Numbered from the stretch's first letter, positions 5,256 through 64,000 are shown. The stretch is 64,000 bases of DNA from Eledone cirrhosa (GCA_964016885.1 OZ024745.1:122450001-122514000), one strand, 5' to 3'. Notes: a model not told the origin generated them from the letters alone. A program made the numbers and translations.

Positions 5256-7852
5256 ATTATATTGGCGGAATCCACTATTTTTGGTAAGGTGTGTAAAGGT
5301 CAATGAATACTTAAGGTCGAGAGTAAACAGGAATCTAAGTCTAATGAAAGGTGTACTCTGAGGGTGAAGATACTTGCAGTTGAAGACAGTGAGAGTCGCA
5401 GAGCATAAATATTTAATACAGAATGAAACCAAGGTTAATTTAAATCCATCTTTAATCTCAACAATTGTTTCTGTAGAGATAAGAGACATGCCAATACATG
5501 TAAACAATGAATCAATTAGTTATAATTAATAATTTACATAGTGTTAAGACTCTGAAAGCATATCTTCAAGAATGTTAGAAGAGGAGATGAATTTATCCCA
5601 TCAACTAGAATACAAGGAAACAATAAACAATAGTATATATCATTAGCTTATAAGTGGCAAATAAAGTAAAAAAGGTTTGTTATGCCTGTGATGTACATAG
5701 TCATGTAATAATCTTTTTGAACAAGTATATGTAAGTATAGCAATAGTCATGTTGTTAAAGAGAGAAATAGATTATCAAAAATTAACAGTATTCTGGGGTG
5801 TAAAAGTTGTTTAACAATTGTTGAGATTAAAGATGGGTTTAAATTAACTTTGGTTTCATTCTCTATTAAATAGATGTGTGTGTTTCTGTGTCTTTGCATC
5901 CTTGTATTGATACCATTTAAAAACAAGCAGTGGCATTTGTTTTTATCTCTCGAAAAGTCTTGTCCAACTCTTGCCAGCATGGAAAAGCAGATGTGATGAT
6001 GATGATGACTTGTATTTATTTAGTTGAATAATAATGATAGTTTCTGATTTAGGTGTAAGACCAACAATGTCACTGGTGCTTTATTTTATCCCGTAAGGGT
6101 GAAAGAAAGCACCCAGTACATACAGTAACGTGGTTGGTGTAGGACGGACATCCAACTGTAGAAAGCCAACCCCCCCCCCCCCCCAATAAAACGTATGAGC
6201 AAGATGTGGTCATCTCACCTGACTAACCACATAACAAGCATGAAAAATTAATGATTAGAAGATTTATTTGCTCCCATTCTTCCCTCTTTGTTTTACATTT
6301 GTGTTCCATGAATTCCAAATGAAAATTTTAAAAAGCTTTTGACAGATCGTAGAGGACAGACGGACTTAAAGATTGTATAATTATTATAATATATAGGTTT
6401 TTTATGTGTTTTTTTTTGTTTTTTAACAATAAATCTAATGATTTTTTTTTTCCTGATTTTGTCTGTTTAAGTTTGTTTCTGCTGTATTTTGCTGATCCAA
6501 ATTCTTTACTGAATGGTTTCACCAGCCAGTAGCACAGCAATATACCAATGTACTGGCCATCATGTGATGGATGCATTACATGAACACCACTGGAGGGACA
6601 GAGACATCTTACTTTGCAAATTGGTTGGACTTTTTATAGAGAAACTCTAGTTGAACACTAGGGATTAGAAACAATCATTGGAGCCCAGTAGCAATATGAT
6701 TTTTGATGAATTCACATGTGATATGTTCTGAAAAATTACAAATAATGAAATGGAAACCAAAAGGAAATTGTGAATTTCGAGGCAATATGCCATTCAATCA
6801 ATGACTTTCAGAGCTTTTACAAAAAAAAACAAAAAACAAAAAAAAATCAAAGAAAAAAAAAACAGCAAAAAAATTCTGAATTGAATTGAAAAAAACGAAC
6901 AATTGCACTGAAAGTGTGTATGTTTTACTATATGAGGGTACGTCAAAATATGGTTACCTAATAATAAATGGAGAAGATAAGGCACAATGTAGGGCAATAG
7001 ATTTAGCAGGGAGTAGGAGTGTGCTAACCAAAATGCCTAACTGTGTTTATTTACTTTAATCTAATCCCTGAAAATCTTGTTTGGTTTTCATTTCTCTGAG
7101 AATGACCTGAGTATTATGGTGAAACCGATTCACTTGACCATACTTCTCCCCTTGCAAAATGTTGGCCTTGTGTCTAGTCAGTTGAATTTTTTTTTTTTTT
7201 TTTTAGACCTTGCATATAAAAAGCAAGTTTTAGACTAGCAGTATAGTGAAAGATCCTTTCTGGTGAATTGTCTGAGTGCAAGAAAGCTACTAACTGACTG
7301 TAGCATTCTGTGATTGTGTTAGTTATGAATATCTCAACATTTTAATAATGATCAGATAACAACAATAATGATCGTTATTATAACACCAGTAACATCCATA
7401 AATTCAGTTTTTAAGATTTTAAACTTGGGGGGAAAAAAAGTTTTCTAAGATATATTTTCTTTTAGATTTTATAATTTTTTCTTAATGAAATTTCAAGCAG
7501 GTAGTTTTATTTTTTTCTGTTCATACTTTGAACTTTAGTTACCTATTTGTTTATGTACATTCTTTTGAAATGAAATCCTTTTTCTTTTTAATGTGGTCAT
7601 TAGATTATACACTGTTTCATTTGACTTACTTTATATAAATGCTGATTTGGGCTTTGGCAGATTCTTTTTAAAATGTATTTTTTAACTTGAAAATCTTTAG
7701 TGGCAGTCCTTTATTTTTATATATTTTTTAAAAAACTTTATATTGTTCCTAATATACACTCATGCTCCATATGTGTATTTTAACAACAAAACATTATGCA
7801 TAATAAATTACATATGCATTAATTGTACTTCATCAGTAGGTGTATATATTAA

Positions 7853-7958
7853 CCTTTAACATGCTGTTGGCGACATAATGCACCATAGTTAGTCTCCCCT
7901 CAATACGTAATGTAGAGTAAAGGAAAAAAACTCATGAAAATTACTAGCATGCTAAAGG
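7853..7958. mobile_element. Small TTAA-flanked MITE
   Basis: TTAA-cctttaacatgct ... agcatgctaaagg-TTAA. Confidence 0.6.
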
Positions 7959-7973
7959 TTAATATTATTATTA

Positions 7974-8160
7974 TGGCAGTATCGGTAGAACGTCAGACAC
8001 CATGCTTTACAGCATAGAGTTATGGCCCTTTACGTTCTGAGTTCAAATTCCGCCGAGGTTAACTTTGCCTATCATCCTTACAGGGTCGATAAAATAAAGT
8101 ACCAGTAATGCACTGGGATAATTGCTGGCCTGGTGCCAAAAGTAGAAACAATTATTATTA
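7974..8160 (+). mobile_element. SINE family A (in inferred RhoGEF 3'UTR)
   Basis: Same head, core and tail as 57725-57909. Confidence 0.88.
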
Positions 8161-8827
8161 TTTCTGAGTAAGGTATTAAATAGAGGATAATCTTGTTTTT
8201 AAAAGATAGCTAATTTCTAAAGTTGTTTACATCTAATAAATTATACGTTGTTTAATCATTTTCGACATCTCGAATGGAATATTTGACTAAGAACCCATTA
8301 TTTTTCAAATTTCCCTGCACACAGACTGACAGATTGTTAACTGGTTGATTTGATAACTGAAGTTTAGAAATAGGTATTAGTTCTCTGCATTTAAAGATGT
8401 CCTCATTGAAGAAGCTTCCTCAGTGGGTTGTTTTGATTTTTTTTTTTTTTTTTTTTTTTTTGTATCTTGCCAACATTTCTATGGATTTGAAATATATCTT
8501 TCACCATGACATTTCACACACATATACAAATCCATAAGCCCTGAAAGGTTTCTGCACCTGTGTTAAGTTTAATAGCTGCAAAGTAATTTTAGTTGAGTAA
8601 CAATCTTATTCTAATTACAAGCATTTGTCAGCCATCTTGCACAACTTAAATATATTTTAAATATAATTGTATTATAATAGAAGTTGAGACTACAATAATG
8701 GTATCATAATAGAAATTAAAAGACTATCATATAAAAAAGGTACTCACTACATTTGTACATTTATTATATATGTTTCATTCGTATGAAATCATATGTATGT
8801 AACAGTTCTAGTTGTGTAGAAGTCATT

Positions 8828-8869
<42 letters not shown>

Positions 8870-9837: not shown

Positions 9838-9881
<44 letters not shown>

Positions 9882-10417: not shown

Positions 10418-10464
10418 CACTTACAAGCGTTTTATCCTAGCACAAGGCTGGAATCATCAGAGTA
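10418..10464 (-). ncRNA. Decayed hammerhead motif between (TA)n tracts
   Basis: ACU-CUGAUGA-UUCCAGC(CUUGU)GCUAGGAU-AAAA-CGCUUG-UA-AGU. G12A change. Confidence 0.4.
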
Positions 10465-10924: not shown

Positions 10925-12227
10925 AGACAACATCCCTAGTGCTGGTACTGCAATAAATTCATTCAGTAGTGTGGGAGTGTATCTAAACGAGAAGCAGACT
11001 CTATCTATGAGGTCAGTAACTCTGATTCAGTACTAACTCGGTCTGTGAAGATCTATCCAATCTTTATTAGCTGGGTAAGCAGACATTAAATGATGATGAT
11101 GATTCATCTTATTTACTCTTTAACTGGTTTCTGTCATTAAACTGTGACCATGCTGGAGCACTATCTTGAAGTCAATCATATCAACCCCAATACCTAAGTC
11201 GATTCTATTTGTCAGTAAATGTAAACATGGACATATACACACATGCGACAGGCTTTGATATAATTTCCTCTCCCAAATTTCACTCATTTCATTGGTTAGC
11301 CTCAGGCTACAAAGCAAACTCCTTAATCACAAAGCAATGCCTGCCTCTGTCAACATTTTCTTTTTTATGAAATTACCTATTTTGTATTTTTAAGAAATTG
11401 TTTTATTACTGAGTTCAAAATGTTTGTCTCGAGTCAAACTTATGTCAAATTACAATTTGCATTCACTTGCCTTAAGATTTAGCATACCAATTTCATTTTT
11501 TAATAACCCATTTAACCCTTTGATTTCAAACTGCCTGATTCTCCAATACTAAGCTGGGCTAGTTAGGAGGGTAAGTGGAACCACAGCAGCACAAAAAACA
11601 AGGGCTTTAGTAGCAGCTCATTCAGAATTTTGAAGTTGCTGAAAATTGGCAAAATATTGACCATTTTACTATAATCTTTTTTCACATATTTCTCGGCTTA
11701 TATGCAAGTATATATAGTAATATTACAAATATGACTAAAAACTACACTAGTAGAGAAAGAACATTATAAAATTTCAATTATTGCTATTTTATATTTGTTT
11801 TTTATTCAAGCAAAATACAAAAGTAACTTTTTATTCCTATTGAGCACGAACATGGCTGTGTGGTTAAGAAGTTTGCTTCACAACCACATGGTTTCAAGTT
11901 TGATTCCACTGTACAGCACCTTGTACTATAGTTTTGGGTTGACTATTGGTTGATGGAAATTGTGAGGAGACCCGTCATACATATATAATTATATTGGCGG
12001 AATCCACTATTTTTGGTAAGGTGTGTAAAGGTCAATGAATACTTAAGGTCGAGAGTAAACAGGAATCTAAGTCTAATGAAAGGTGTACTCTGGGGGTGAA
12101 GATACTTGCAGTTGAAGACAGTGAGAGTCGCAGAGCACTAATATTTAATACAGAATGAAACCAAGGTTAATTTAAATCCATCTTTCATCTCAACAATTGC
12201 TATAGAGATAAGAGGCATGCCAATACA
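10925..12227 (+). repeat. Local segmental duplication of RhoGEF 3'UTR blocks (~3182-3760 and ~4897-5495)
   Basis: Near-identical sequence. The same spurious ORF appears at 3341-3529 and 11120-11317. Confidence 0.92.
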
Positions 12228-12231
12228 ATGG

Positions 12232-12375: not shown

Positions 12376-12425
12376 CAGAAATTTAAACATTATTTAACTT
12401 CACAATTCAATGATTTTCCTGCATC

Positions 12426-12630: not shown

Positions 12631-14198
12631 TGTTAGTGTTGTTTCTTCATGGCTCCGATGAACAATGGTAAATACATTACCTCGGAGGATGGCAAATGAG
12701 ATGTTCTAAGGTAACCAGTACACCGCATGGAATTAGTTCGTTCCTGCAAATGGACAACTCCATCCTGATTATAAGTATGGAACTGGTTCAGAAACCCAGG
12801 ACACTAGTTTCCACAAGAAACATATATAACGTGCTCAGTAATATGGCAGCTTCTGATATTCAACATGTCTGACACGGAGCTAATGTAATTTCACTGAGTT
12901 GATACTGGATAAGTTACGCTGCAGGTTACACATTAGATAAATGGTATTAAAGATTGTTTGGTAGGATAACTTAAATAATTTCATTGTTATTTTGTGTATA
13001 CAGTGTGTGTGTGTGTCCCGGGTTATTTGCAGAATTTTCCTTAGAAAATAACTACTAATTGTTCGTGGAAAGCGGCGCATATTCACAGCATTGTAAATAT
13101 CTTGCGCGGTTTTTCTATGGCTTTTTCGTGGCAATATATATTTTCCACACACACTTTTTAAAGCGAAATTATTAATAACAATATACCGTAAATAATATTT
13201 AATAACAAAAATAAAAATAGACCAACATAAGATCGATAACTTTTGATTTAAAAAAAAAAAATCTTGAAAGGTTAGCAAGAGTTATTTCCCTTGAAATTAA
13301 ATTTACAATTTGATTATACTTTTTACCATGGATTTTTTTTTTTCTCCTCCAAATTGAAACGAGGGCGTCACGATTGACAAAGAAGACTTGCGAAGTTGAA
13401 TAGCCAATGCTGCGAGTTTCAGCAACTGTTCTCCATAGAAATACCGTCTTCATATTGTACGACGTGCGCTCTTGAATTATGCTGCCCAGTCAAGAGTGAA
13501 GAGTTCCCCTTTCCCTATTTCTCCCTCCTTTTTAAAGATTTATTTTTGACACTATGGCATTATAAATGTAGTCTTTATATAAACATTTCTGGGAAGAATT
13601 TTAAAAAAGTTTTTTGATTATGCAATGTTAATAAGTATTTTTACTGTTATGTAGTTGCTTAGACTTCCCCCTGAAGTTTATACCATATAGATTATATACC
13701 ACACTAGATTATATTGGATTTCTTACAGAAGTTCACTTGGATACCAAATCAACCTTCTAAACTTCCAACACACGTGTAGATGGCCTGCTGTTTGTCTTAT
13801 TATTGGTAGAAATGAGGAAGTGTGGTTCTAGGGAGATTTAGCTGCAAGTTCTAGCAGGTCAAGTGATGACCACTTAGAGGTTATATCATTATGTAAAATA
13901 ATCGAACTTATCCAGTTAATAAGTAAGTTCTTATCAGTTCAAATAGAAGAATAATTGATTTATTTATTTCTCTATAATGTCGCATAGAAATGGCCTCTAC
14001 GGGACTAGTACTGTTTCATTCGTTTGAAATCATATTTGGCTTTCTGGATTATTCCAAATTAATGAAATAGTTCTAAGCCTATAGAAGTCAATTCTATATG
14101 AAATAAATATATAACTTCTCTACTAACGTACTGAATACCTTATTTACCACTATCGTTCCCTTCAAAACACTATTCTTAAATACAATATATATATATAT

Positions 14199-14371: not shown

Positions 14372-14430
14372 CTTTATATATATAATAATACAAGGATGCT
14401 TTGTTAAGCCATCATTACGTTTATTGATTC

Positions 14431-14513
14431 GTGATGCTCATTTCGCTATTGATCAGCTCAAGGTTCGATCTGTATCGATTTGGCCTGACACTGGAACCAA
14501 AAGCTCGTCAGAC
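14431..14513 (-). ncRNA. Hammerhead ribozyme-like motif with weak stem I
   Basis: CUGACGA-GCUUUUGGUU..GAUCAAUAGC-GAAA-UG(AG)CA-UC. Only 2 bp of stem I. Confidence 0.5.
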
Positions 14514-14639
14514 CTGTGCTGGTGTAATGAATCTAAACATCGAGTGCTCACCTGGGTGAACCTACAGTAACTTCACGTTACACTCCCTGGATATATATAT
14601 ACACACTCACATACATTATGCAATATATGTGTGTATATA

Positions 14640-15237: not shown

Positions 15238-16077
15238 TGATAGTACTATACTACAGCTAAATCTGTGTGTGTGTGTGTGTCTGTGTATTACCTATAGGGG
15301 CCTACATCTTACGACCGATTTTCATGAAACTTTACAGGCTCATAGATTACTCATAGAGGAGTGTTTTCTATATATCAGCATATCGTTTTTTTTATTCCGG
15401 GGTCATTAAATATACCTTGGAGGAGGCCAGTTAAACCTGCATAGGTGTGAGCTGTCACAACAACATATAAAAGGACAATTTGTTATGTCTTCATTATGTT
15501 TATTAATGAAGACATAACAAATCGTCCTTTTATTATATTTACTCTGTTTAGTTCTACACCTCGTTACAGACAGGAATCTACGCATTGAGTGCTCACCTGG
15601 GTGAACCTACAGTAACAGCACGTTACACTCCCTATATATATATGTGTTAGGTAATTCCGAAGGAAAAGCAAAGGAAAAAAGAGTGCTCTATGTATAGAAC
15701 AGAGCTATTTAATTAGAAAGTGAACAACACAGTATATAATTACTCCATTACCAAAGGTTTCTGGATCCCAGACAAAAATAATATATATATATATATAAAT
15801 ATTTATATATATATACACATGTGTATATATATATATATATATAGTCTCTCTCTCTCTAAGAAGTCAGTTGTTGTCAATCCCAGAGAAGACTGGAACCTGT
15901 TGGTTTTAAAATGACCATGAAAATCTGTCTGTTACAACGACACACACACAACTCTCAGTAGTTGATAGTTCAATAATAAATAAATAACTATACTTCCTTA
16001 AACTTTTGTGGACACTTGGATGCTTCAACAAGCTTCAAAATACTTCTAGCATCCAATACACTTCAAGTTAAACAAAT

Positions 16078-16262
16078 AACTGTTTCTACTTTAGGCACAA
16101 GGCCAGCAATTACCCAGTGCATTACTGGTACTTTATTTTATCGACCCAGTAAGGATGAAAGGCAAAGTCAACCTCGGTGGGATTTGAACTCAGATCGTAA
16201 AGGGACGTAACTATGCTGGAAAGCATGGCGTCCGACCCTCTACCGATACTGCCAATCCACCA
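16078..16262 (-). mobile_element. SINE family A
   Basis: Full head, core and tail on the minus strand. Confidence 0.88.
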
Positions 16263-16328
16263 AATAACAATAATCAAATTGGATAGTAATGGTAAATAGA
16301 CAAACATGCTTCACTTTTGTTGGATGTT

Positions 16329-16510
16329 CAGTATCAGTAGAGAGTCGGACACCATGCTTTGCACATAGAGTTACGTCCCTTTACGGTCTGAGTTCAAATC
16401 CCACCGAGGTTAACTTTACCTTTCATCCTTACGGGGGTTGATAAAATAAAGTACCAGTAATGCACTGGGATAATTGCTGGCTTTGTGCCAAAAATAGAAA
16501 CAGTTAATTA
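16329..16510 (+). mobile_element. SINE family A (inverted partner of 16078-16262)
   Basis: Full head, core and tail. Confidence 0.88.
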
Positions 16511-19210: not shown

Positions 19211-20362
19211 ATTCAGTAAAATAGTTACTCTCAGGTTTTGAATAACCATTCCACCCAGCTCTTATTAATTTTTCAAATCCCCCTTCCTTGCTTAATATTT
19301 CTAGTGATATTTTATTTTAAGTAGTCACATTCCTGTGGTAGTTAATTTTCTTTATACATTAAAAAACATTATACATGACAAAAAAAGAACATTACAAGAA
19401 ATCTCATATGTTATAAAATTAATAAGATGGGTTGGGGTCTCAATATGTAAACTAAACAACTAATTCCAAAAATTAGGTAGTAACATGTGCTTACGCCATA
19501 TTTTACTAAATACAATTAGTCTGTTAGTTGGGATTTAAAAAAACCCCTCTGAATGGAAAAAAGGATGAGTATTGATGGACATGGAACACAAACCCACATC
19601 TTTGGTTTGACCAATGTGCTACCATTACACCAACATGCCACACATGCTTCGTTCCATTCAATTAGTAGCTATAGCAGGTATATATATCTATATAAATAGG
19701 GAGACACAAAGCAGATTTTAATAAAATCAATGGAGATAACCTAGAAAAAATTACCCCAGTTTTCAACAATCCCCTCCCCCCCACACGTTATTTCCACCAC
19801 AACCCCTATTATTTGGGACCCAAGAGTAGGTTTATAATTTAGATACCCTCTTTAACATATGTGACAGTCCCTGCTCTAGCTTAATGTGGCCCTACCAACA
19901 CTTCCTTTAATCTTTTGGAGGCTGAATTTTTTAATGAATTACTTCCCTTGATACTGTATTATGTGTTAAGAGGAGATTACTCTATTGGTGACATATTAGT
20001 ATTATATTGCTGTTTCTCCTTTGATCAAAATAGTTAGTAAACTCTTTCAACATCGAATTCATTGACATATAAATTAAAAGTGATGCGTTTTCAATTAAAA
20101 CTAGTTCTGTTTTAATTTATATAACTTACCTTATTTATAACATCTGATCAATAACTTATTAACCTAGATCTTAGATCTTTACAAAGTGCTATCCTTTATT
20201 TCATTAATATAATTTAGCCAAACCTAAATCCAATTATCCAATTAAGGGCAGAATATTGTTTATATTAAATTAAGAGAAAGACTGAATAATTTAAATGAAT
20301 ATTGTCAATTACATTTTTTCCAATTTTTTTCAATTCCGCCGTCTTTCTAATTTCTCATTCTT

Positions 20363-20398
20363 TCTTCTGATGAAGGACTAGCGTCCGAAACGTTAAGA
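20363..20398 (+). ncRNA. Minimal (Penelope-type) hammerhead ribozyme
   Basis: UCUU-CUGAUGA-A-GGAC(UAGC)GUCC-GAAA-CG-UU-AAGA. Palindromic ACGU stem III. Lies downstream of a FINII*PNLN remnant. Confidence 0.7.
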
Positions 20399-20490
20399 CC
20401 CTCTTCCTGCTATTTCTAGCGTTAAACTAATATATTCCTTCCATATACTGTTCCGATTGTGTTGTTATTTCTGTTTACCTTTTACAAACA

Positions 20491-20527: not shown

Positions 20528-20591
20528 TATAGGTATTTATTTAACAATGAAAATAACAACAACAAAGTCAAGTTATTTTACCTATTCATAT

Positions 20592-20687
20592 CATTGTTTT
20601 ACGATCGTTTCGGAGGGTTGATCATATTGACATATTGTCTGATCTATAGCAGTTATATAACTGTAACCATCTTCTTCGGAAACTATG
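20592..20687 (-). ncRNA. Decayed hammerhead motif
   Basis: GUUU-CCGAAGA..long stem II..CUCC-GAAA-CGAUCG-UA-AAAC. U4C change in the core. Confidence 0.45.
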
Positions 20688-21688: not shown

Positions 21689-21949
21689 GTATATGTGAGT
21701 ACTGGGTTCAATTGGGGGTAACTACAATAAGTAAGGTACTCAATACATAATAGAGTATATACAAGAATTTAATATAGAAATGGCTTCTACAGGACTAGAA
21801 CTGTTTCATTCGAAGGAAACTGTTCTAGTCCTGTAGAAGGTATTTCTATATTAAATTCTTATATATATATATGTATGTAGGTGTGTTTTATATAAATCTG
21901 CATATATGGAATCTGAGGGTCTAGCCTAAGATCACTTTCAGTGATCCAT

Positions 21950-24395: not shown

Positions 24396-24590
24396 ATATA
24401 TATATATATATATATATAATAGAATATAAAAGGAAAGCGAACACAGATATATAGATATATGTGTTCAAATCATAAAGGACCAGATTCGCTAAGGTGAAAA
24501 GAATACTAACTATGGACAATTGGGTTTGTTTGTCTCAATTTAAGAAAAAATTAAGAAAATAAATACAAACCGGAATTGTGGTAACTACCA

Positions 24591-24665
24591 ATCACCCAGA
24601 CAACTTGGTGTTTCGCAATGTTAATTGTGAATAGAATTACCAATTCAAGCTCATCAGTGGGTGAT
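24591..24665 (-). ncRNA. Type I hammerhead ribozyme, intact core
   Basis: AUCACCCA-CUGAUGA-GC..GC-GAAA-CA(CCAAGU)UG-UC-UGGGUGAU: perfect 8-bp stem I, 3-bp stem III, GUC cleavage triplet. Confidence 0.8.
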
Positions 24666-24933
24666 GAATTAGTATCCTAGACACTTCTAAGTATATTAAG
24701 AAACTGAATAGTGTGCTATATATAAAATAGCGCACATGGTATCCAATTGTCTATAGTTAGTATTCTTTTCACCTTAGCGAATCTGGCCCCTTACGATTTG
24801 AACACATATATGTATATATCTGTGTTCGTTTTTCTTTAATATTCTATTATAATATACAGCTCGGAAATATCTCTTTCTTAGAGCTATTTTGTTGTAAGAG
24901 ACCTTTTTGAGTTCCTAACTCAATATATACCTT

Positions 24934-24968
<35 letters not shown>

Positions 24969-25129: not shown

Positions 25130-26662
25130 ATATATACCTTTGTTAACTCTGATAGGTTTCGGTCAGTATTAGCCCAGGCCATGTCTAACTTAACAGCACC
25201 ACCTGGCAAAGTCTTTCAAATCAGGATTTCGACACCATGGCCCACACAAGTAGAGAATTATTGTTTATGGAGACATATCCGGGTGTAGGAGGTTTATCCA
25301 GGATTTCTTGAACATTATGGGGTCTTTTTTTGTTTTAATGTGTTTTGGCGTAATGTTATAGAGAGCAGGGCCAATTGAGGTGAAATAATTATGCCGTATT
25401 GTTGTTATGAGTGTGATTTTTGTTGTATTGGGTGTATTTTGAAGATGATGCCAACATTATTTGGGCAATGCTGATGGAATATTTTCCACATCATGTAGAT
25501 GATGTAGTGTTCATGGTGATGTTGGAGTGAGTAAAGTTTGAGTTTTTCTAGTCAACCCCAATAATTAAGGCCGTCTCTTTTTTGTGATTGACCTTTGAGG
25601 AGCTTCAATTTTCATGATACTTTATTTCGTGTGGGGAGACCACAGTGGACAACAGTACTCAAGGTGGGGTCAGGTGCATAAGTGGAGAAGAGAAGGATAA
25701 TAGTGTGGATATCTGTCGACTGGAAGTTCTGAGAACCCAGGAACACATTCTGTGGACCATGTCAACGTTGCTGTTTATATGAGAGGCCCAGCTTATGTTG
25801 TTGCCCACAATTGCTCCCATGTCTCTGATGTTGCTGGATGCCATGAGTGTTTCACCTGAAGGAAGGGAGTATGGGAGTTTCAGGGCATCTTCTTTTCCAA
25901 AGTGGATTAACTCAAATTTATCCTCGTTCAGCAGCATATTGTTGAGCTTCTGGAGCTTGGAATCATCTGCAAAGATTCTTATGTTGCTGTGCTTGGTGAT
26001 GTCAGTAATGTCATTAATGTAGATGATGAAAAGTAGTGGGCCCAACACAGTGCCTTGCTGAAAGCCACTACTGACTTTGGGTGGGCTTGATATTACTCCT
26101 TTGACTACATGTTAGACTCTGTCTTCAGGAAACACTTGATTCATTGCAGTAACTTTCCAGAGACACCAATGTTGGACAGTTTTTTCAATAGAATCTTGTG
26201 ATCAACCCTGTCAAAGGCCTTGCTGAAATCAAGGTAGATGACATCAGTGTTGGAGCCCTCTCCCAAACCTCTCAAAATGTATTCAAAATGATGCAGGAGC
26301 TGCGTTAGGCAGTCCCTTCCGTTACAGAAACCATGTTGGTTTGAGTTCAGCAGTCTGTTGCTTTCAAGAAAGTGAGTTATTCGTGATCTCACCACCCTCT
26401 CAAATACCTTGATGATGATATGAGAGGTGAGTGAGATCAGATGGTAGTTCACTGCAAGGGACTTGTTTCCCTTTTTGAAAACTGGGACCACAGATTGGGA
26501 CAGAAAGTTTTCAGGAATATAGCCAGTGTCCAGTGTCCAGTTCTTCCGCAGATTAGCAAGAGGAGATGCAAGTTGGAGTTGACACACCTTCAGGACACAA
26601 GCAGGGAACCTAGTGGGGCCTACTGCTGAATTGTGTTTAATTTCATTTATTGCCGCTATGAC
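25130..26662 (-). mobile_element. 5'-truncated, decayed CR1/L2-group LINE (RT domain and 3' end)
   Basis: NYHLISLTS, NQHGF, YLDFSKAFDRVDH, GPLLFIIYIND and FADDSKL motifs, with frameshifts. The 5' end abuts a (TA)n tract. Confidence 0.88.
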
Positions 26663-26986: not shown

Positions 26987-27180
26987 ATATAATATATATA
27001 TATATATAATATATATATATAAACAATGAGTTATTTAATTTGTTGATTATTCAACAAAGTTAATTTAAAACAGATTAGAAGCACTCAACAGTTTTCTTCT
27101 GGAGTATAATATCAATTACTATTGATTTATATATATATATATAATATAATTATATATAATATATATATATATAATATAAT

Positions 27181-29560: not shown

Positions 29561-30807
29561 GGTATCTATATTCATATTACATCAGGTGGATATTATGACA
29601 TACTTTTCACATAAATAGTTCAATGTTGATTCATCTAAATCTTTGATTATAGATAACGCTACATTAGGGAATGAAAGGGTTTGAAATATGAGAACGTCGG
29701 TGAACATTTATTTAGACTTCTTTTCTTAATCAACATTTCTGGAAATATTTGATCTAGGTGATTTCTCATATCAATTGCAAAAGTTGTTCAAACCACATTT
29801 TACATCTATCTGACAAAGAAATACTATTTAATTTGGTATAATAAGATCTAGTAACATATAGTTGCAAATCTTATATTTTATTGTCAGAAGAATCATCCGT
29901 CCATTCATGTATTCTGAACTTCTGCTAAATTTGTAAGATCACCAGCATGGCATTTAAACCTGGTTGAGTCCATCTCTCTCTATGTCTGAAAATAGCCAGT
30001 TTCTTTCAGAAAGGAAGGTTTGATGCCAGTAATGGACTGGAAATTTATTTAACCTCAATCAAAAGGATGAAGGAGAAATTTGATCTTCATGTAGTCTGAA
30101 ATTGATGTTCAGAGCTAGAATGAATAACTGCAAAGAATTCTATTCAATATTCTAACAACTTTGCCAATTTGATGTCTTCTGTCAAAAGAATAAGTATCTG
30201 GTAGTCACTTACCATATAGCCCTGCTCACTCTATAATTCTTTGATCAGAAGACTATTTGTAATGCAAACATACTATGGTTCCATACTTTTCAGTCATACA
30301 CTATACATTGTATATTTTTATACTGACATGGATTGCCTGAGACTTTATTGAGGCAGCATTCTATGGTTGAATACTGTTCTGGTCACCAACTCCTTGTTTT
30401 CTTTTAAAGTAAGGTACTGATTTTATCACATCAAATCTCTGAGCTACAGAAATTATATCATTTACACACATATGCATGCATATATATATATATATATGCA
30501 CACACATAAAATAGAGGTAATAATAATAATATTATTAATAATTGGAGAATTAAAACTGCTTTACCGGAGGGTTAAAAACTCAATGCAATGGAGTTCACAC
30601 AGAACTGCTATATATTAATTTCAAAAACACCGGAGATTAAAGACATTGTCAAACTGCCTTGAAGTTTCAGTGTTTTTGAAATTAATATATATATATATTT
30701 ATGTAATAAACAACACAATACAATTATCCATTACCCAACGTTTCATGGATATAAGATATGAAATTAAAATCATAGATTTTAATTTCATATCTTATATCCA
30801 AATAAAG

Positions 30808-30880
30808 ATTCCTTCTGATGAGCGATATCAGATATTTGTATTAGAATCGTCTAACTTCGTGAAACCTTAGGTAATGGAAT
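30808..30880 (+). ncRNA. Type I hammerhead ribozyme, intact core
   Basis: AUUCCUU-CUGAUGA-GCGA..UCGU-GAAA-CC(UUA)GG-UA-AUGGAAU: stem I 6/7 pairs, GUA triplet. Confidence 0.7.
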
Positions 30881-30997
30881 AATTATATTGTGTTGTTTAT
30901 TACATAATTAAATAGCTCTGTACTTTATATAGAGCACTCTTTTTTCTTTTACCTTTTCCACAGAAATATTTAGCTCATATATATATATATATATATA

Positions 30998-38308: not shown

Positions 38309-38420
38309 CAAGAAAGATTTCCAAATTTCACCAATCATTCATATGGTACCACCATGAAGTGCAAGTAATCTCTGGTGGAGTGTATGTTTTGCTTTGTCTT
38401 TCACAACCATGAAATTATTT

Positions 38421-43900: not shown

Positions 43901-44496
43901 AGACTCACTATAAAGGCTGGAGACATGATGGGCAGGGTGATCCACTGGCTCCTATGCAAAGTAAACAATTTACCACATTCTGAGAAGTGGTATGAGCATA
44001 AGCCAGAGTCGGTGATAGAAAACGATCAGGTGAAGGTGCTGTGGGATTTTAGGATACAGACGGACAAGAAACTGGAACACAATGGACCTGACCTGGTGGT
44101 TTTGGACAAGGAAAAAAGATCGTGCCTGATAGTGGATGTGGCCTGCCCATTCGACACGAGAGTGCAAGAGAAGAAGGAGAAAATTAACCGATACCAGGAC
44201 TTAAAGTGGGAGGTAAAAAGGATTTGGAACTGCCATGAAATCAAAGTGGTCCCGATTGTCATAGGCGCACTAGGTACTATCTTAAAAAGTTTCCAGGGAT
44301 GATTAAAGAAAATTGGCCCCACCTCGCTTTTTGGAACGCTTCAAAAGGCATGCTTGCTGGGAACAGCAAGAACCCTCCGATACGTCCTGAATATCTGAGG
44401 CTGCAGGTAGTGGCTTGATATTCATTTCAACAAACTTTCCAGTTAACTAACATCAATGACTGAGACTCAAAGAACAATAATAATAATAATAATAAT
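40915..44496 (+). mobile_element. Near full-length R4/Dong-clade non-LTR retrotransposon (RT + zinc knuckle + restriction-like endonuclease), frameshifted, antisense in a RasGRF intron
   Basis: ORF from ATG 40988 with WKSPGPDG, GIFQGDSLSPLLF and HLLFMDDLKLF. CRICGEREETVAHIVSEC..RHD knuckle and PDLVV..DVACPFD..K..Y RLE. Frameshifts near 43105, 43225 and 43930, premature TGA at 44300, natural stop 44396-44398, (AAT)n tail. Confidence 0.92.
40988..44398 (+). pseudogene. Disrupted single ORF of the R4/Dong element (ORF-track pieces of 706, 273 and 125 aa)
   Basis: Pieces 40988-43108, 43162-43983 and 43925-44302 join into one RT-RLE polyprotein across three frameshifts and one stop. Confidence 0.9.
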
Positions 44497-48995: not shown

Positions 48996-49459
48996 ATATT
49001 TTACACAGCTACAGTTGCTGTGCCAGTTTTTTTTTCTGAGTAAAATGAATATTTTGATTGACAAACGTCACATCAATAAACTAGTAACCCCATCTAGCTT
49101 TGAAGTTATGAAATGTTGGAAAGAAATTCAAGCATGTTAGGACGAGTTATCTCATCCATGGCACTGGATTATGAAATATTATGTAGAAAATTTAAAGCTA
49201 AAGAAGAGATTTTTAATATTTAATGTTTATTTTTAAAATGCCAATTCAATATTTGTTCTGGCACTTTACATACTACATTCAAATCCCACCACGGTCAACT
49301 TTGCTTTTCATCCTTCCAGCTTCGATAAAATAAAGTACCAGTCAAGTACTGGGGTGTATTTAATTAACTTTGCACTTTCCCCCAAATTTACTGGCCTTGT
49401 GCTTAAATTACAAATCAATATTTGATATTTATTTAAAAAGTAAAATAACTATTTCTTAC

Positions 49460-49657
49460 CTGCTTTGATATCCTTTCCCACATTTTCTTCATTCTAAAAA
49501 CTGAACTGTTCACAAATGCAGCACATATCTGTAAGACACCATTGTAATTGTGCATGCAACGACAAATATCTGCGATTGCAGCCCACTTTTCAAGACATGC
49601 TACTCTGTCTTGTATATTGGTACGTCCAACAATTTCCGACACTACCAAACGACTCAC
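49460..49657 (-). CDS. RASGRF1: RasGRF exon (CDC25 domain)
   Basis: tacag/gtaaga, 198 nt phase 0-0. VSRLVVSEIV..LEKWAAIADICRCMHNYNGVLQICAAFVNSSVFRMKKMWERISKQ. Confidence 0.95.
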
Positions 49658-49964
49658 CTGTAAAATACAGAAAGAAATTTTAACAATACATAGAACAAAA
49701 TCCCTCAGAAAATTTAAATATACCAAATATTTAATAAAACAAATTTCATATTATTTTTTTCTTATAGCGTAATACAGCATTCAATTCTCTCGTAATTAAT
49801 TCTTTTGGTATCAACCTGCTTGAAACCACCACAGGTTCTGTGATACAAAACTGTTTGTTTTAAAGTGTTTATACTTATGTTAAAACCTTCCATCTTAATT
49901 TTATGTAAAATCTTTTTTTCATGTTCCAAACACCAGCTTAATAATGAAAATGTCATTTTATTAA

Positions 49965-53786: not shown

Positions 53787-53789
53787 GTT

Positions 53790-54824: not shown

Positions 54825-56036
54825 CTGAAATATAAAGAATATAACCAATAAGTTAGGATATTTATAGTTTATAAGAAGCATTGTGAGATACGTGGTTCAG
54901 ATTGTTTTGGGAAATTTGGTACAATGTAAGTTGTAAAGGATTGAGAACTAGAGTTATGTAAGATAAACAAACCAAAACAACTGTTTACAAGTAAATTTGT
55001 AGCACAGAGGTCTGGATAACAAAAGATGTGGGTTCGACTCCCATGTATGTCAAAACTCATTCTTTTCCATTTTTTAGAGGGTTAGTCTACTAAATTTCAA
55101 CTGTTTACACTTTTACTTTATATTTCATAATATTTTGGAGTTTAAGACTTATCTCTCAATAGAGTTACAGTAATATTTTGGGGGCTAAGACTTATTTCTC
55201 AATAGAAATGAATTACAGTAATATTTTGTGGGGTTAAGACTTATTTTTCAATAGAAATGAATTACAGTGTGTTGGTGATAATGGAATCACTTCTGAGTAG
55301 ATAATAGGTCAGAGATATTAGCAATAAAATCAAAAAGATCCACATAGCAAGTATAATACTTAATAGTGCTAAAAGGATTTTCATGTATTGAACTGAAAAA
55401 TGTATTCACATTATGAATACACACACAAACAAACACACATACTCTCTCTCTGTCTCTCTCTCTTCCTCCTCTATCTATCTAGCTCTGTTTTTATCAATAC
55501 CATTAGATACCATTATAAATTCTTAATGCTGCACCAGCAGTTATTGTTATTTTAAAGTTAAGGTTATTAATGTTGAGGCAAAAGGAGGAGAATTGGATTA
55601 AAAATTCCCTGATATCAATTTGTAGTTACTTATTGATATAGAGCTATATAATGATTGGCAATCAAAGAATGACAATATAAAGTAGAGATAAATCTTCAGC
55701 TTTACCAAGGACATGACAGTCTTACTAGTGCTGGTACCACAATGAAATGCACCTAGTGCATCTTATAAAGTGGTGGGCATTAGGAAGTGTGTACAGCCAT
55801 AGAAACGATGCCAAGATAAGGAATGTAGGAAGAAGACAGTCACTAACTGTTGATGACCTGTCCAACCCATACTAGTATGGATAGTGGATGTGATAATAAT
55901 GATGATGATAATTATTGTCAAGATAAGACAAAGCAAGTATTTTTCTCTATGATGTTAATTTCTGATTTTATAGTGTTTAGATGTTGCTGAAGCAAACACT
56001 ACCCAATATTATAGGTTTATAGCACTTTCAAACATG

Positions 56037-56710
56037 TTAGGGTTAGTGTTAGGGGTAAGGATTAGAGTTAGGGCCTAGGGGTTATGGTTAGAGTTGGGGC
56101 TAGGGATAGGGTTAGAGTTAGGGCCTAGGGGTTAGGGTTAGAGTTGGGGCTAGGGATAGGGTTAGAGTTAGGGCCTAGGGGTTATGGTTAGAGTTGGGGC
56201 TAGGGATAGGGTTAGGGTTAGGGCCTAGGGGTTAGGGTTAGAGTTGGGGCTAGGGATAGGGTTAGGGTTAGAGTTAGGGCCTAGGGGTTAGGGCCTAGGG
56301 GTTAGGGTTAGAGTTGGGGCTAGGGATAGGGTTAGGGTTAGAGTTAGGGCCTAGGGGTTAGGGTTAGAGTTGGGGCTAGGGATAGGGTTAGGGTTAGAGT
56401 TAGGGCCTAGGGGTTAGGGTTAGAGTTGGGGCTAGGGATAGGGTTAGGGTTAGAGTTAGGGCCTAGGGGTTAGGGTTAGAGTTGGGGCTAGGGATAGGGT
56501 TAGGGTTAGAGTTAGGGCCTAGGGGTTAGGGTTAGAGTTGGGGCTAGGGATAGGGTTAGGGTTAGAGTTAGGGCCTAGGGGTTAGGGTTAGAGTTAGGGT
56601 TAGGGTTAGGGGCTAGGGTTAGAGGTTAGGGGTTAGGGCTAGAGTTAGGGGATAGGGTTAGGGATTAAAGTTAGGTTTTAGGGTTAGGGTTAGAGTTAGG
56701 GTTAGGGCTA
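56037..56710. repeat. Interstitial telomere-like (TTAGGG-variant) array with a 50/56-bp higher-order unit
   Basis: gggttagagttagggcctaggggttagggttagagttggggctagggata(gggtta) repeated ~10x. Confidence 0.93.
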
Positions 56711-58659: not shown

Positions 58660-59815
58660 TACCCATCAAACCTTACCTATGGTCATGAATGTTGTGTAAT
58701 GACTGAAAGAATATGATCATGAAACAAGCAGCTGAAATGGGGGTTCCTCTGAAGGGTTTTTAGATTAATGTTACTCGATAGGGTGCATAGCTTGGATATC
58801 AGAGAGTCACTCCATGTAGAGCTGCTACTTCTCTGAATTGAGAGATCACAGCTCCGATACTACGGGCATGTGGTTAGAATATCTCAGGAAAGAATCGCTG
58901 GAGAGTCACTCCATGTAGAGTTGCTACTTCTCTGAATTGAGAGATCACAGCTCCGATACTATGGGCATGTGGTTAGAATATCTCAGGAAAGAATCGCTGG
59001 AGAGTCACTCCATGTAGAGCTGCTACTTCTCTGAATTGAGAGATCACAGCTCCGATACTATGGGCATGTGGTTAGAATATCTCAGGAAAGAATCGCTGGA
59101 GAGTCACTCCATGTAGAGCTGCTACTTCTCTGAATTGAGAGATCACAGCTCCGATACTACGGGCATGTGGTTAGAATATCTCAGGAAAGAATCGCTGGAG
59201 AGTCACTCCATGTAGAGCTGCTACTTCTCTGAATTGAGAGATCACAGCTCCGATACTATGGGCATGTGGTTAGAATATCTCAGGAAAGAATCGCTGGAGA
59301 GTCACTCCATGTAGAGCTGCTACTTCTCTGAATTGAGAGATCACAGCTCCGATACTATGGGCATGTGGTTAGAATATCTCAGGAAAGAATCGCTGGAGAG
59401 TCACTCCATGTAGAGCTGCTACTTCTCTGAATTGAGAGATCACAGCTCCGATACTATGGGCATGTGGTTAGAATATCTCAGGAAAGAATCGCTGGAGAGT
59501 CACTCCATGTAGAGCTGCTACTTCTCTGAATTGAGAGATCACAGCTCCGATACTACGGGCATGTGGTTAGAATATCTCAGAAAAGAATCACTGGACAGAT
59601 TTTACGGCGAAACCAACCGGAAGGAGACTGAGGGGTAGACCCAGAGCAAGAAGGTTGGATAACATCCATGAGCTTGGCTGGTTTCGCTTGGAGATCCAGC
59701 CAGATCAGTTGGAGATGGTTGCTTCTGACAGGACCTGCTGGGAGGGGTGGGGTGTTTGAGGACCCTGCCCCCATGACCCTCTCAGGAATAAGTGGGTGAA
59801 GAAAAGAAGAACTAT
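58660..59815 (+). mobile_element. RTE LINE 3' fragment containing an internal 99-bp tandem array
   Basis: EMGFL..DRV..IRESL..IERSQLRYYGHVVR..KPTGRRLRGRPRARRLDNI. Confidence 0.8.
58802..59594. repeat. 99-bp minisatellite, 8 near-identical copies
   Basis: Unit gagagtcactccatgtagagctgc...gaaagaatcgctg starts at 58802, 58901, 59000, 59099, 59198, 59297, 59396 and 59495. Confidence 0.97.
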
Positions 59816-61663: not shown

Positions 61664-61721
61664 TCTCCAACTTTTTGTTTTTATGCTGTAATTTAATTGT
61701 CTATTGTAGAAGGAAGACACA

Positions 61722-62058
61722 GTCAAGGAAGACCATGAAAAACATGGGCGGAGGTGGTGAGAGCTGATCTCAGATCGCTGAAGCGTCTTAATGCATGGGC
61801 ACGCTGGGCAGTTGCCTGGGGGCCCCACGAGGATAGGGGGCCCATTTTGTATTTTTATTTCTGTGAGTGTTTGTGTAGGTAGGGGCCCCAGTGCTCTGCT
61901 TTGCCCGGAGGCGGGGGGGGGGGGGGGGCTATAATGCTGTTAAGACGGCCCTGACCGTGACAAATGGAGAGATGCCATGCTAAATAAGAGCCGTCCCACC
62001 CTTGCAAGCAGGGAAAAGCAGACGTAAAATGATGCTGATGATGATGATGATGATGATT
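61722..62058 (+). mobile_element. Second RTE 3' terminus interrupted by a hAT-like MITE (~61784-61953)
   Basis: Same sequence as 61505-61663, split by a GC-rich insert ending ttaagacggccctg. The left TIR is reduced to cgtcttaa. Confidence 0.7.
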
Positions 62059-62194
62059 ATACCTGTCTGTGATAAACTAGTGGCAGGAACTGAAGAATAT
62101 GATATTCATTTTTGGGGAAAATACTTATTAATTATGAAAAATAAAATAAAATAAAATAAAATGAAAACCAGAAAACACTGTTCATTCTACTTAC

Positions 62195-62374
62195 TGCAGG
62201 TGGGGCTAATAATATATCTAAATCAACTTTATTGCTATCTTGGCTTTCCTGGTTGATTATGCGTAGTATGCCTGCAGCTGCTTTATGTTCAGCTGGTAAT
62301 AAAGAGGTATTACACACCATTTCTTCAAGTAAATCAATCAAAAAAGCTTTCAATTGTGCATCTGTGTCAAAATC
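62195..62374 (-). CDS. RASGRF1: RasGRF exon (end of REM region)
   Basis: cctag acceptor, gtaagt donor, 180 nt phase 0-0. DFDTDAQLKAFLIDLLEEMVCNTSLLPAEHKAAAGILRIINQE..., similar to RasGRF1 DFETNDELK..ERKAAANIIR. Confidence 0.9.
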
Positions 62375-64000
62375 CTAGGGAAAATGAAAGAAATGTCATA
62401 GATATTATACTGCATTTACAATTATTTTTATTTTAGTATTATTAAGTTAGAAATTATTGATTTCTCAATATTAACCCTTTGAAGAAAAAGCAGCCGGATT
62501 ACTGACATAGTGTTATAGTGTGTACACTAAGTGTTCCAGTTTATATAGAGGTTACCAAGTAATCTACTGTTAAATCAGAAGCATCGTTTCATAAAGCCTA
62601 TTTCTTGTATGGTGACAGGAATATATATATATATATACATATATATTATATATACAAATATAAATTAGCGAGGATCGTATTTCGGCTATTGGAAATTAGC
62701 GAAAGACACCTTCCGAGGAGTGAGGTAAGCGCTCCATAGAAGCTAGTGTTCTAGAGCAACAACGTAAGTTAAGAGGCCAAACACACTGAGACGATGGTTA
62801 AACCATTACCCACACAGCCATAGAAATGATCATGCCATTTCGGGTCAAACACATAATAATAATAATAAAATATGATTGTGTATATATATATTATATATAT
62901 ATATATACACACACATACATACATATATATATATATATATACACATACATATATATACATACACACATATATATATATATATAATTACATATAAAAACAA
63001 AGCAAGCTAAACGGGTCAAACAAAATATGAATGAAATATTAATGAAATATTTACTATATATATGTATATGTATATATATATATGTATATGTATGTATGTG
63101 TGTGTATATATATATAATTACATATATATATATATATACACACACATACATACATATACATCATCATCACCGTTCTATGTCCGTTCTTCCACGCTAGCAT
63201 GGGTTAGATATATACATATACATATATATAGTAAATATTTCATTAATATTTCATTCATATTTTGTTTGACCCGTTTAGCTTGCTTTGTTTTTTTGGCTTG
63301 GGTGGTTGATAGCTCCTTAACTGCCGTCTCAGTTTGTATGGCCTTTATAACACATGTTTATTGCTCTGGTCCCTTTTGGTCCATGGAGCGCTTGCCAACA
63401 CAAATCGGAAATTGCATTTCACTAATTTCTACTGGCCAAAATGCGATTCTCGCTGAATTTATATTTATATATATAAATATATATATATAATATTTATATA
63501 TATAAATAAATATATATATATATATAATGTAGGAGGTGAATTTTATTGTAGAACAATAAAGCAATGCAAGTATCGGATAAGTAGCACTCAACAGTTTATT
63601 GGACTGGAGTATATATAAGAAGAAATTAAAAGATGGTTAAAACATGGGACGTTTTTAACCATCTTTTAATTTCTTCTTATATATATATATATATATATAT
63701 ATTTCAATGTGTATATAAAGATTTATTTAAGATATAACAGTCAGTATTTTTGTATTTTTACATGAATTTTTCTCATTTTTGTTGATCCAAGTTAAAAGAA
63801 GTTTACAGGCATAAAGCAATATTTTAGAAATTTGATCAAGAAGTTTGCAAAACCAGTGTAGAGGCTGCTCAACTGTAAATTTCTCAGCAGTCACAGGGTT
63901 AACGTGTTTGTTCATTAATCTCTTGCAGAAAAGGAGTGACAATAAAGCAGAGGACTAAATACATTGAATTGAGTTCAATATCAATTTCTGCTATGATAAA

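What the first reader, a model, noticed from the sequence alone, without database searches (positions are those of the whole stretch)
5270..63690. Family of small hammerhead-ribozyme fold-back elements sitting in (TA)n microsatellites
Seen: at least nine non-coding 150-600 bp inserts, mostly bounded by (TA)n, have 20-110 bp inverted arms (5405-5875, 13985-14100, 15468-15535, 21758-21868, 24413-24855, 30610-30690, 30697-30910, 62993-63292, 63610-63683). In several, the arm starts at a GAAAC-palindrome-GUH motif, the 3' half of a hammerhead (GAAACAGUACUAGUC at ~14000-14015 minus, GAAACAAUUGUU at ~5461-5472 minus). Complete or decayed hammerheads occur at 10418, 14431, 20363, 20592, 24591 and 30808. 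Several also share a CTC..GAG terminal motif (15680, 21735, 27080, 63585). Established: Penelope-like elements carry minimal hammerheads in their pLTRs and often have inverted, truncated pLTRs. Retrozymes are non-autonomous hammerhead retroelements. Inference: this is a diverse, ORF-less, microsatellite-targeting PLE-derived system, very dense here, that could yield self-cleaved hairpin or circular RNAs.
Basis: partly seen in the sequence, partly recalled or inferred. Interest (0 to 1): 0.8.

Follow-up and report, generated by a model that had tools for sequence, protein, structure and literature searches.

The report
Two-armed footprints of Penelope-like retrotransposons
The small hairpin-shaped inserts in these (TA)n repeats are mostly cut-short ends of Penelope-like retrotransposons, likely made when two DNA copies started at two fixed points of the element's RNA were joined head to head; one family is a protein-less 505-base unit with a predicted self-cleaving ribozyme that likely borrows the same enzyme.

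Summary
Observation mostly real. 7 of the 9 named inverted repeats beat shuffles, and 3 of the 6 named hammerheads are complete (3 vs 0.135 in shuffles). The inserts are not one ORF-less family. They are 3' ends (pLTRs) of about ten repeat families. Family A (21704-21863) is about 80% identical to the pLTR that precedes the ORF in 12 of 12 full-length Hydra-clade Penelope-like elements. H (20342-20484) continues upstream into decayed coding sequence. Families A, C, D, F and a coding parent have two fixed 3' ends flanking an R-CTC..GAG-Y stem. In unselected loci, 47 of 50 head-to-head pairs join one short-ended and one tail-ended arm, and in 29 of the 47 neither arm contains the other. That points to two separately primed cDNAs, not to a fold-back RNA. 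Several fold-backs lack the catalytic core. Only D (505 nt, intact hammerhead) and E (614 nt, no hammerhead found) are closed, head-to-tail units without a coding part; D fits a non-autonomous, retrozyme-like Hydra derivative. No RNA data. Known kind, new members; the two-start joining rule is a testable lead on how PLE inverted ends form.

The parts
21704..21863 (.). Family A fold-back: tail-ended arm on - (21704-21819, ref 304-415) joined to short-ended arm on + (21804-21863, ref 304-363); catalytic core (ref 297-303) absent; pLTR of a Hydra-clade PLE
13984..14147 (.). Older, decayed family A pair: short arm on - (13984-14033), longer arm on + (14036-14147)
   Evidence: 88% and 74% to the A reference
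24409..24937 (.). Family D insertion: short-ended arm on - (24409-24744, ref 89-422) and tail-ended arm on + (24743-24937, ref 309-503) of a ~505-nt ORF-less head-to-tail unit
24599..24657 (-). Complete type I hammerhead motif of D (8-bp stem I, 36-nt stem II region, GUC triplet)
   Evidence: z -2.16
30692..30975 (.). Family C insertion: short arm on - (30692-30747), junction hairpin 30746-30800, tail-ended arm on + (30769-30972)
30815..30873 (+). Complete type I hammerhead motif of C (stem I with a mismatch, GUA triplet)
15648..15761 (-). Second family C copy, tail-ended, truncated 3' of the catalytic core
63525..63685 (.). Family F fold-back: tail-ended arm on - (63525-63642), short arm on + (63639-63685); both start 3' of the family's hammerhead
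27022..27126 (-). Tail fragment of an F-like family with ACTC..GAGT stem, (TA)n on both sides
   Evidence: family not searched
5252..5872 (.). Family B, old (72-87% between copies): tail-ended arm on - with a short inverted arm at 5813-5872 that ends just before GCTC; hammerhead core decayed
14395..14594 (.). Family G: read as a short-ended arm on - with a variant hammerhead-like motif, joined to a tail fragment on +
   Evidence: reading by eye
15468..15632 (.). G-like fold-back (15471-15529) followed by ACTC..GAGT stem and tail
20342..20484 (+). Family H: 5'-truncated pLTR with minimal hammerhead (20367-20394, GUU triplet); no fold-back, no CTC..GAG tail; longer copies continue into decayed PLE coding sequence
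62993..63460 (.). Family E: 59-bp inverted arm (62994-63052) and 3' part (63233-63460) of a 614-nt head-to-tail unit, separated by microsatellite and a SINE fragment; an older E copy lies at 62662-62801; no hammerhead found
30520..30683 (.). Weak fold-back with ACTC..GAGT stem on -; family not identified
10418..10461 (-). Decayed hammerhead-like motif (core present, GAAA read as AAAA)
   Evidence: by eye; one search gives no support for the fold
20585..20645 (-). 3' half of a hammerhead-like motif, core absent
   Evidence: by eye

Best explanation
The inserts are 5'-truncated 3' ends (pLTRs) of several Penelope-like retroelement families, mostly Hydra-type, that sit in (TA)n and likely arise when the element's endonuclease opens both strands of the repeat and its reverse transcriptase primes two separate cDNAs, one at each of two fixed start points on the RNA, which would then be joined head to head. 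Shown: two 3' ends per family, the one-short-one-long pairing, variable turning points, and the link of family A to a coding element. Inferred: the UA-rich stretch at each start point pairs with the nicked (TA)n; the R-CUC..GAG-Y stem just 3' of the first start point positions the enzyme; many cDNAs run only 70-130 nt to the RNA's 5' end, just upstream of an uncleaved hammerhead, which makes tiny hairpins so common; the two cDNA ends anneal by microhomology. Family D is an ORF-less ~505-nt unit that keeps the hammerhead, the tail stem and a Hydra-like leader stem and is likely mobilised in trans by a Hydra enzyme. The hairpin is a DNA-level insertion scar, not the RNA that moves.
For: 12 of 12 full-length copies of a 758-aa-frame element carry an A-like pLTR (79-80% to A ref 200-421 in 11; 88% over 294-421 in the twelfth) directly 5' of the ORF. 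Two A loci have a related endonuclease end upstream in line (76-81% DNA identity to that element). Both abundant coding families show the Hydra motifs RWR, DKT and CxCx5C and lack CCHH (against PMC8557442 section 11). 3' ends are bimodal in A, C, D and the coding family Hy1 and F. Head-to-head pairs in loci not fetched for that family: 47 of 50 short+long, 3 long+long; in 29 of the 47 the short arm reaches >10 nt further 5' than the long arm, so neither is a copy of the other. D: 33 of 35 classifiable pairs short+long, 15 more unclassifiable. Full-length coding copies show the same rule in the 4 of 6 that have an adjacent inverted arm. 29 of 47 unselected A arms start at ref 283-300, beside an Inr-like site 26 nt after a TATA box, and 44 of 47 start upstream of the predicted cleavage site; 24 of 72 Hy1 arms start at ref 383-396. 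The stem closes A-U or G-C in different families. 3' ends are followed by microsatellite in 33/47 (A), 14/15 (C), 12/18 (D), 56/71 (Hy1) against 23% of random positions. In vitro, a PLE extends both strands, starts at two internal sites and uses uncleaved RNA (PMC11167929). D's tail-leader junction occurs 136 times exactly, control 0, and continues into D's own body in 30 of 30 loci, never into an ORF.
Against: No biochemical or RNA evidence. 16 of the 47 short+long pairs are mirror-like within 10 nt, as snap-back priming predicts. Part of the pile-up at ref 294 may be an alignment effect, because the sister pLTR diverges from the A reference there; the transcription start is predicted, not mapped. 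D and C show no comparable single pile-up. Pfam does not recognise the RT of the two Hydra-type ORFs and gives only a weak GIY-YIG match for one; no tree was built. No coding parent was found for C (30 loci, 12 extended), and none was searched for B, F or G. The second CTC..GAG stem after the long end is in Hy1 and D but not evident in the 758-aa family. E has one 3' end and no hammerhead and does not fit. One end of an unrelated SINE is also followed by microsatellite in 24 of 38 copies.
Confidence: 0.7

Rival explanations
1. Same elements, but the inverted arm is made by snap-back self-priming: one cDNA (or an antisense RNA) folds on itself at a palindrome and is copied back until a TA-rich spot that anneals to the other target end.
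For: Turning points in A often lie in an imperfect palindrome in stem II. 16 of 47 unselected and 45 of 56 selected A short+long pairs are mirror-like within 10 nt. Self-priming on an antisense template is the published reading of head-to-head PLE junctions (PMC3846280, passages).
Against: In 29 of 47 unselected pairs the short arm holds sequence that the long arm lacks, while the long arm holds the tail; several pairs do not overlap at all. Either arm can be the full-length one.
Confidence: 0.15
2. One reading: an independent ORF-less system of fold-back ribozyme elements that is amplified as units and yields self-cleaved hairpin or circular RNAs.
For: D and E are closed head-to-tail units without a coding part. 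D has an intact hammerhead and sense chains up to 927 nt, longer than one unit, as a circular template would allow. Metazoan retrozymes make such circles (PMC7229834, passages).
Against: A and H continue into coding elements. Turning points differ between copies. Four window inserts lack the core and one has it decayed. None of 30 D junction loci showed two matching cores on one strand (strict pattern), and no long tandem array was seen. An uncleaved transcript of a partial tandem explains the D lengths equally well.
Confidence: 0.1
3. Each head-to-head pair is two unrelated insertions that landed next to each other in the same (TA)n hot spot.
For: Different families do pile up in the same microsatellites.
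Against: The arms are of the same family and abut within 40 nt, mostly within about 12 nt or overlapping. Independence predicts about half short+long pairs; 47 of 50 were seen.
Confidence: 0.03
4. They are MITEs, short DNA transposons with terminal inverted repeats.
For: Short, numerous, inverted arms, TA-rich targets.
Against: Arms are unequal and vary in length, many copies have no inverted arm, D and E form head-to-tail partial tandems, and A is the pLTR of an RT-type element. Target-site duplications could not be judged inside (TA)n.
Confidence: 0.02

Closest known systems
Hydra-clade Penelope-like elements (Craig et al. 2021, PMC8557442; sections 11 and 15 and passages read)
   Same: C-terminal GIY-YIG; RWK-like, DKT and CxCx5C motifs; no CCHH; hammerhead in the pLTR; insertion in (TA)n; partial tandems, inverted 5'-truncated copy, optional tail.
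   Different: Here two such families are very abundant and young (150 of 150 scored endonuclease matches at 98-100% identity each). One has a 3' UTR with over 1.5 kb of TG/TA repeat; the other has a non-canonical core (CAGAAGA). Tails are about 55-85 nt rather than 30-40. The CTC..GAG stem and the one-short-one-long rule are not in the parts read.
Poseidon PAc of Anolis (Frangieh et al. 2024, PMC11167929; parts 1-2 of 4 read)
   Same: Two internal RT start sites bracket the tail; both target strands are cut and extended; AT-rich target; uncleaved RNA is the template.
   Different: PAc starts in an AC-rich stem-loop inside the ORF at a site not homologous to the target. Here the ends lie at TA-rich stretches that match the (TA)n target, and the genomic pairs indicate that the two arms of one insertion use different start sites, which that paper did not see in vitro.
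Non-LTR retrozymes (Cervera and de la Pena 2020, PMC7229834, passages; Li et al. 2026, bioRxiv 10.64898/2026.07.22.740005, parts 1 and 3 of 5 read)
   Same: Family D: ORF-less head-to-tail unit with one type I hammerhead, low GC, related to PLE pLTRs.
   Different: D is about 505 nt (typical about 300), dispersed as under two units with PLE-type inverted arms and tail, not in arrays; circular RNA not shown.
Non-autonomous PLEs such as MRC1 of Chlamydomonas (PMC8557442, passage)
   Same: ORF-less units that form pLTRs and head-to-tail insertions and share terminal sequence features with a coding family.
   Different: Other clade; D carries a hammerhead and shares with Hy1 only short stem motifs, not long sequence identity.
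Adineta vaga Penelope elements (Arkhipova et al. 2013, PMC3846280, passages)
   Same: Head-to-head inverted pLTRs with junction palindromes; tail on one of the inverted pLTRs; TATA plus Inr in the pLTR.
   Different: Interpreted there as self-priming on an antisense template; the non-overlapping arms here argue for two primed cDNAs.

Membership tests
Penelope-like elements (EN+) | Single ORF with RT and GIY-YIG endonuclease linked to the pLTR | tested here: met
   Family A: A-like pLTR precedes a 758-aa frame in 12 of 12 copies; YRDD and YIG motifs by eye. H: decayed ORF remains upstream in 1 of 5 extended loci by tblastn, shared upstream stretch in 3 of 5. Not met for D and E, unresolved for B, C, F, G.
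Penelope-like elements (EN+) | Profile or phylogenetic placement of the RT | tested here: inconclusive
   Pfam finds no RVT_1 in the two Hydra-type ORFs and a weak GIY-YIG in one; it finds both in a Neptune-type ORF. No tree built.
Penelope-like elements (EN+) | Partial tandems, inverted 5'-truncated copy, optional tail | tested here: met
Penelope-like elements (EN+) | Type I hammerhead motif in the pLTR | tested here: met
   A (794 exact core-to-stem III matches, control 0), C, D, H, F. Not found in E; decayed or variant in B and G.
Hydra clade | RWK-like motif, DKT, CxCx5C linker, no CCHH, CxxC and CxH near the C terminus | tested here: met
   Read from the natural ORFs against the definition in PMC8557442 section 11.
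Hydra clade | Insertion into (TA)n | tested here: met
   56 of 71 Hy1 and 33 of 47 A 3' ends followed by microsatellite against 23% at random.
Hydra clade | Grouping with reference Hydra proteins in a tree | not tested
   No reference Hydra proteins were fetched.
Non-LTR retrozyme (family D) | ORF-less head-to-tail unit with a type I hammerhead | tested here: met
   Unit about 505 nt; 41 of 158 sense chains cross the junction; longest stop-free frame 49 aa; 30 of 30 junction loci continue into D.
Non-LTR retrozyme (family D) | [quoted passage not shown] | tested here: inconclusive
   0 of 30 junction loci with two cores under a strict pattern; a few chains span the core region twice (L371, L489). 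No long array seen.
Non-LTR retrozyme (family D) | Self-cleavage and circular RNA | not testable with these tools
   No RNA holder listed; no bench test possible.
Non-LTR retrozyme (family E) | Type I hammerhead in the unit | tested here: not met
   No core with matching GAAA and stems on either strand of the 614-nt unit.
MITE | Fixed terminal inverted repeats of equal length | tested here: not met
   Arms unequal and variable.
MITE | Target-site duplication | not tested
   Cannot be told inside (TA)n.

The most novel reading that the evidence does not exclude
These scars record the unsolved step of Penelope-like transposition: a dimeric RT-endonuclease primes both target strands, one at each of two start sites set by a conserved CUC/GAG RNA stem, so every inverted insertion has exactly one tail. 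Run-off to the RNA 5' end scatters tiny hairpins through the genome, and a 505-nt hammerhead unit (D), possibly a circle, parasitises this machinery.
Probability: 0.45. Interest if true: 0.72.

Novelty: new member of a known kind. Interest (0 to 1): 0.5.

Why it matters
How PLEs make their tandem and inverted ends, their tail and their microsatellite bias is named as open in PMC8557442 (section 15), and PMC11167929 leaves the later steps unvalidated. This genome offers a countable rule (one short and one tail arm per inverted insertion, often non-overlapping), a candidate cis-acting stem with compensatory change across families, young coding families with long open frames, and a natural non-autonomous substrate. 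Together these make the mechanism testable in vitro. It also warns that such hairpins can be mis-annotated as MITEs, miRNA precursors or ribozyme genes. The elements themselves are of known kinds.

Tried and rejected
Rfam scan: no hammerhead family; hits were microsatellite-driven miRNA models and weak tRNA matches. My first reading that full-length A is a 415-bp ORF-less element with a fixed 5' end was wrong: that boundary is a TG/TA tract inside the 3' UTR of a coding element. The first hammerhead scanners missed real motifs and were widened. Single-strand folds did not favour the hammerhead fold for 5 of 6 motifs, so folding energy is no support. Neptune-type coding elements found through PF01541 have other pLTRs and no CTC..GAG tail and were rejected as parents of A, C, D, F. 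The search meant to extend C mostly returned the inverted arm; the second gave a microsatellite-rich upstream tract but no ORF in line in 12 extended loci. Earlier scan findings: none. Literature searches returned no paper describing the CTC..GAG stem or a short+long pairing rule; the library lacks most subscription journals and Repbase, and no supplements were read, where Hydra pLTR details of PMC8557442 may bear on this. An octopus repeat paper (PMC13282606, passages) lists active Penelope-like families and has no mention of ribozymes.


Full report
Setting. The window is G000:C5:122450001-122514000 of a 3.0-Gb animal genome, about 33% GC and rich in (TA)n. It holds no PLE ORF: the long frames are other non-LTR RT remains and a RasGEF exon, and a tblastn with PLE ORFs from this genome printed no window hit. 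That the genome looks like an octopod's is my impression from recall and was not tested.

Observation. With microsatellites masked there are 34 local inverted repeats against 1-5 in five shuffles; 7 of the 9 named exceed the best shuffle score and two do not. A type I hammerhead descriptor finds three motifs at score 9 or more (20367+, 30815+, 24599-), shuffle mean 0.135, 0 of 200 shuffles reaching three. The other three named motifs are decayed, half or variant by eye. Rfam has no hammerhead hit.

Families. Own-genome searches split the inserts into unrelated families. First-look candidates, which are not copy numbers: A 3041, C 2098 (26), D 2882 (27), B 298 (31), G 3024 (32), H 312 (40), E 3331 (42), F 1272 (75). 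A 34-letter pattern spanning A's core to stem III occurs 794 times, control 0. Related families show stem I pairs that change together (GGCU-UC/GAAGCC, AGAUUC/GAAUCU, GGAGCUUC/GAAGCUCC). The window's A fold-back starts at ref 304, after the core at 297-303; F's arms start 3' of its hammerhead.

Coding parents. GIY-YIG searches show many PLEs (10,597 candidates). Neptune-type elements have other pLTRs. Two further families gave 150 of 150 scored matches at 98-100% identity each. Their ORFs (713- and 758-aa frames, 50% identical) carry RWR, DKT and CxCx5C and lack CCHH, the Hydra features of PMC8557442 section 11; Pfam does not see their RT. In 12 of 12 full-length copies of the 758-aa family an A-like pLTR lies directly 5' of the ORF and its tail runs into it. 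A itself looked at first like a closed 415-bp element. However, 2 of 13 extended A loci show a sister endonuclease end upstream across a long TG/TA tract, and others share islands within that tract. H continues upstream into decayed coding sequence (tblastn hit in 1 of 5 extended loci, shared upstream stretch in 3 of 5). C has a similar repeat-rich upstream tract, but no ORF was found in line. B, F and G were not searched for parents.

ORF-less units. D is a ~505-nt unit whose tail end is followed by its own head. The junction occurs 136 times exactly, continues into D in 30 of 30 loci (22 for 300 nt or more, the rest cut or interrupted), and is crossed by 41 of 158 sense chains, up to 927 nt long; the longest stop-free frame is 49 aa. 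Its post-tail leader (GCTC..GAGC, 12-nt loop) resembles the leader that precedes the ATG of Hy1 (8-nt loop). E is a 614-nt unit, head-to-tail in 4 of 19 distinct loci by blast, with one 3' end and no hammerhead found; its mobiliser is unknown.

Two ends and a stem. 3' ends are bimodal in A (ref ~350-363 and ~410-422), C (~190-196 and 254), D (~410-422 and ~490-503) and Hy1 (~459 and ~545), and in F. The short end lies at a TA-rich stretch just 5' of an R-CTC..GAG-Y stem. Among 13 hand-picked stretches, the closing pair is A-T in 7 and G-C in 5; the old window copy of B is not clear. Ends are followed by microsatellite in 67-93% of unselected copies against 23% at random; one end of a control SINE also reached 24 of 38.

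Pairing rule. In loci fetched for other families, 47 of 50 head-to-head pairs join a short-ended and a tail-ended arm (A 20/20, Hy1 22/24, F 5/6, C none). In loci fetched for the family itself it is 104 of 108, partly by selection, and in D 33 of 35 classifiable pairs, with 15 unclassifiable. Independence would give about half. In 29 of the 47 the short arm reaches more than 10 nt further 5' than the long arm, in 2 the reverse, and 16 are mirror-like; several pairs share no sequence. Since the long arm always has the tail, in those 29 neither arm can be a copy of the other. Full-length Hy1 copies can be either arm.

5' ends. 29 of 47 unselected A arms start at ref 283-300, next to an Inr-like CAGT (ref 286) 26 nt after a TATA box; 44 of 47 start upstream of the predicted cleavage site at 335. 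24 of 72 Hy1 arms start at ref 383-396, at an Inr-like TTAGT. By eye, 24 of 30 core-selected A copies stop within about 15 nt upstream of the core. Promoter motifs are recalled consensus, not mapped; alignment trimming may add to the ref-294 peak, and RT stalling at the ribozyme is an alternative. D shows no such peak. In either case the templates were not cleaved at this hammerhead, as reported in vitro for PAc.

Mechanism. Shown: PLE pLTR identity of A, two ends, pairing rule, variable junctions, closed units for D and E. From literature: GIY-YIG nicking of AT-rich DNA, extension of both strands, two start sites (PMC11167929). Inferred: UA/TA pairing at priming, the stem as enzyme-binding site, one start site per strand, run-off to the RNA 5' end, microhomology joining, trans-mobilisation of D. 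The main rival is snap-back self-priming (PMC3846280), which can explain the mirror-like third of pairs but not the non-contained ones.

What is known. Inverted truncated pLTRs, a tail on one of them, (TA)n targets, minimal hammerheads in opposite orientation 100-700 bp apart and non-autonomous PLE derivatives are all described. Papers seen: PMC8557442 passages and sections 11 and 15; PMC11167929 parts 1-2 of 4; bioRxiv 2026.07.22.740005 parts 1 and 3 of 5; PMC7229834, PMC4209133, PMC3846280, PMC2377424 and PMC13282606 passages only; no supplements. Eight searches showed no description of the CTC..GAG stem or the pairing rule.

Verdict. Real features, mostly ordinary PLE debris rather than a new ribozyme system, with one likely non-autonomous hammerhead unit and a quantitative clue to PLE integration. 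Novelty: new member of a known kind. Interest 0.5.

Noticed in passing
window 40988-44400 (+): Broken non-LTR retrotransposon with RT (PF00078) and a C-terminal zinc knuckle plus restriction-like endonuclease motifs, with (AAT)n nearby on both sides; looks like the R4/Dong type (label recalled).
   Followed up: partly
window 49433-49750 (-), 38390-38540 (-): RasGEF-domain exon and a likely last coding exon of a host gene on the minus strand; inserts further right may be intronic to it.
   Followed up: partly
window 25659-26650 (-): Decayed RT fragments of another LINE.
   Followed up: no
window ~4890-5500 and ~11630-12230: Local duplication of about 600 bp that includes part of the family B insert (96% over the 246 bp matched); the second copy is followed by a telomere-like CCCTAA-type repeat.
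   Followed up: no
window 56036-56707 and 58802-59595: Degenerate (TTAGGG)-like array and a 99-bp tandem repeat of 8 copies at 98%.
   Followed up: no
window 16083-16500: Large inverted repeat formed by two opposed copies of a tRNA-like SINE; not a PLE fold-back.
   Followed up: partly
   Followed up: no
L217, L218, L224, L228, L230 pLTRs: Neptune-type coding elements carry hammerhead variants with a U3-A8 core (a variant described in PMC4209133), one also with GCAA for GAAA, and a different tail hairpin (GTGT..ACAC).
   Followed up: partly
L294-L329: One of the two abundant young Hydra-type families has CAGAAGA in place of the hammerhead core, suggesting it spreads with a non-canonical or dead ribozyme.
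   Followed up: no
L495-L498, L521-L532: The 758-aa Hydra-type family carries over 1.5 kb of TG/TA microsatellite in its 3' UTR, so it may itself seed the repeats that these elements target.
   Followed up: no
L143-L155 (G000:C20 3.97-5.25 Mb, C27 14.4 and 15.2 Mb): Near-identical G copies with shared flanks recur about every 110-130 kb, pointing to a large tandem segmental duplication.
   Followed up: no
L032: An A copy whose inverted part is upstream promoter sequence rather than a pLTR end, like an L1-type twin-priming inversion.
   Followed up: no
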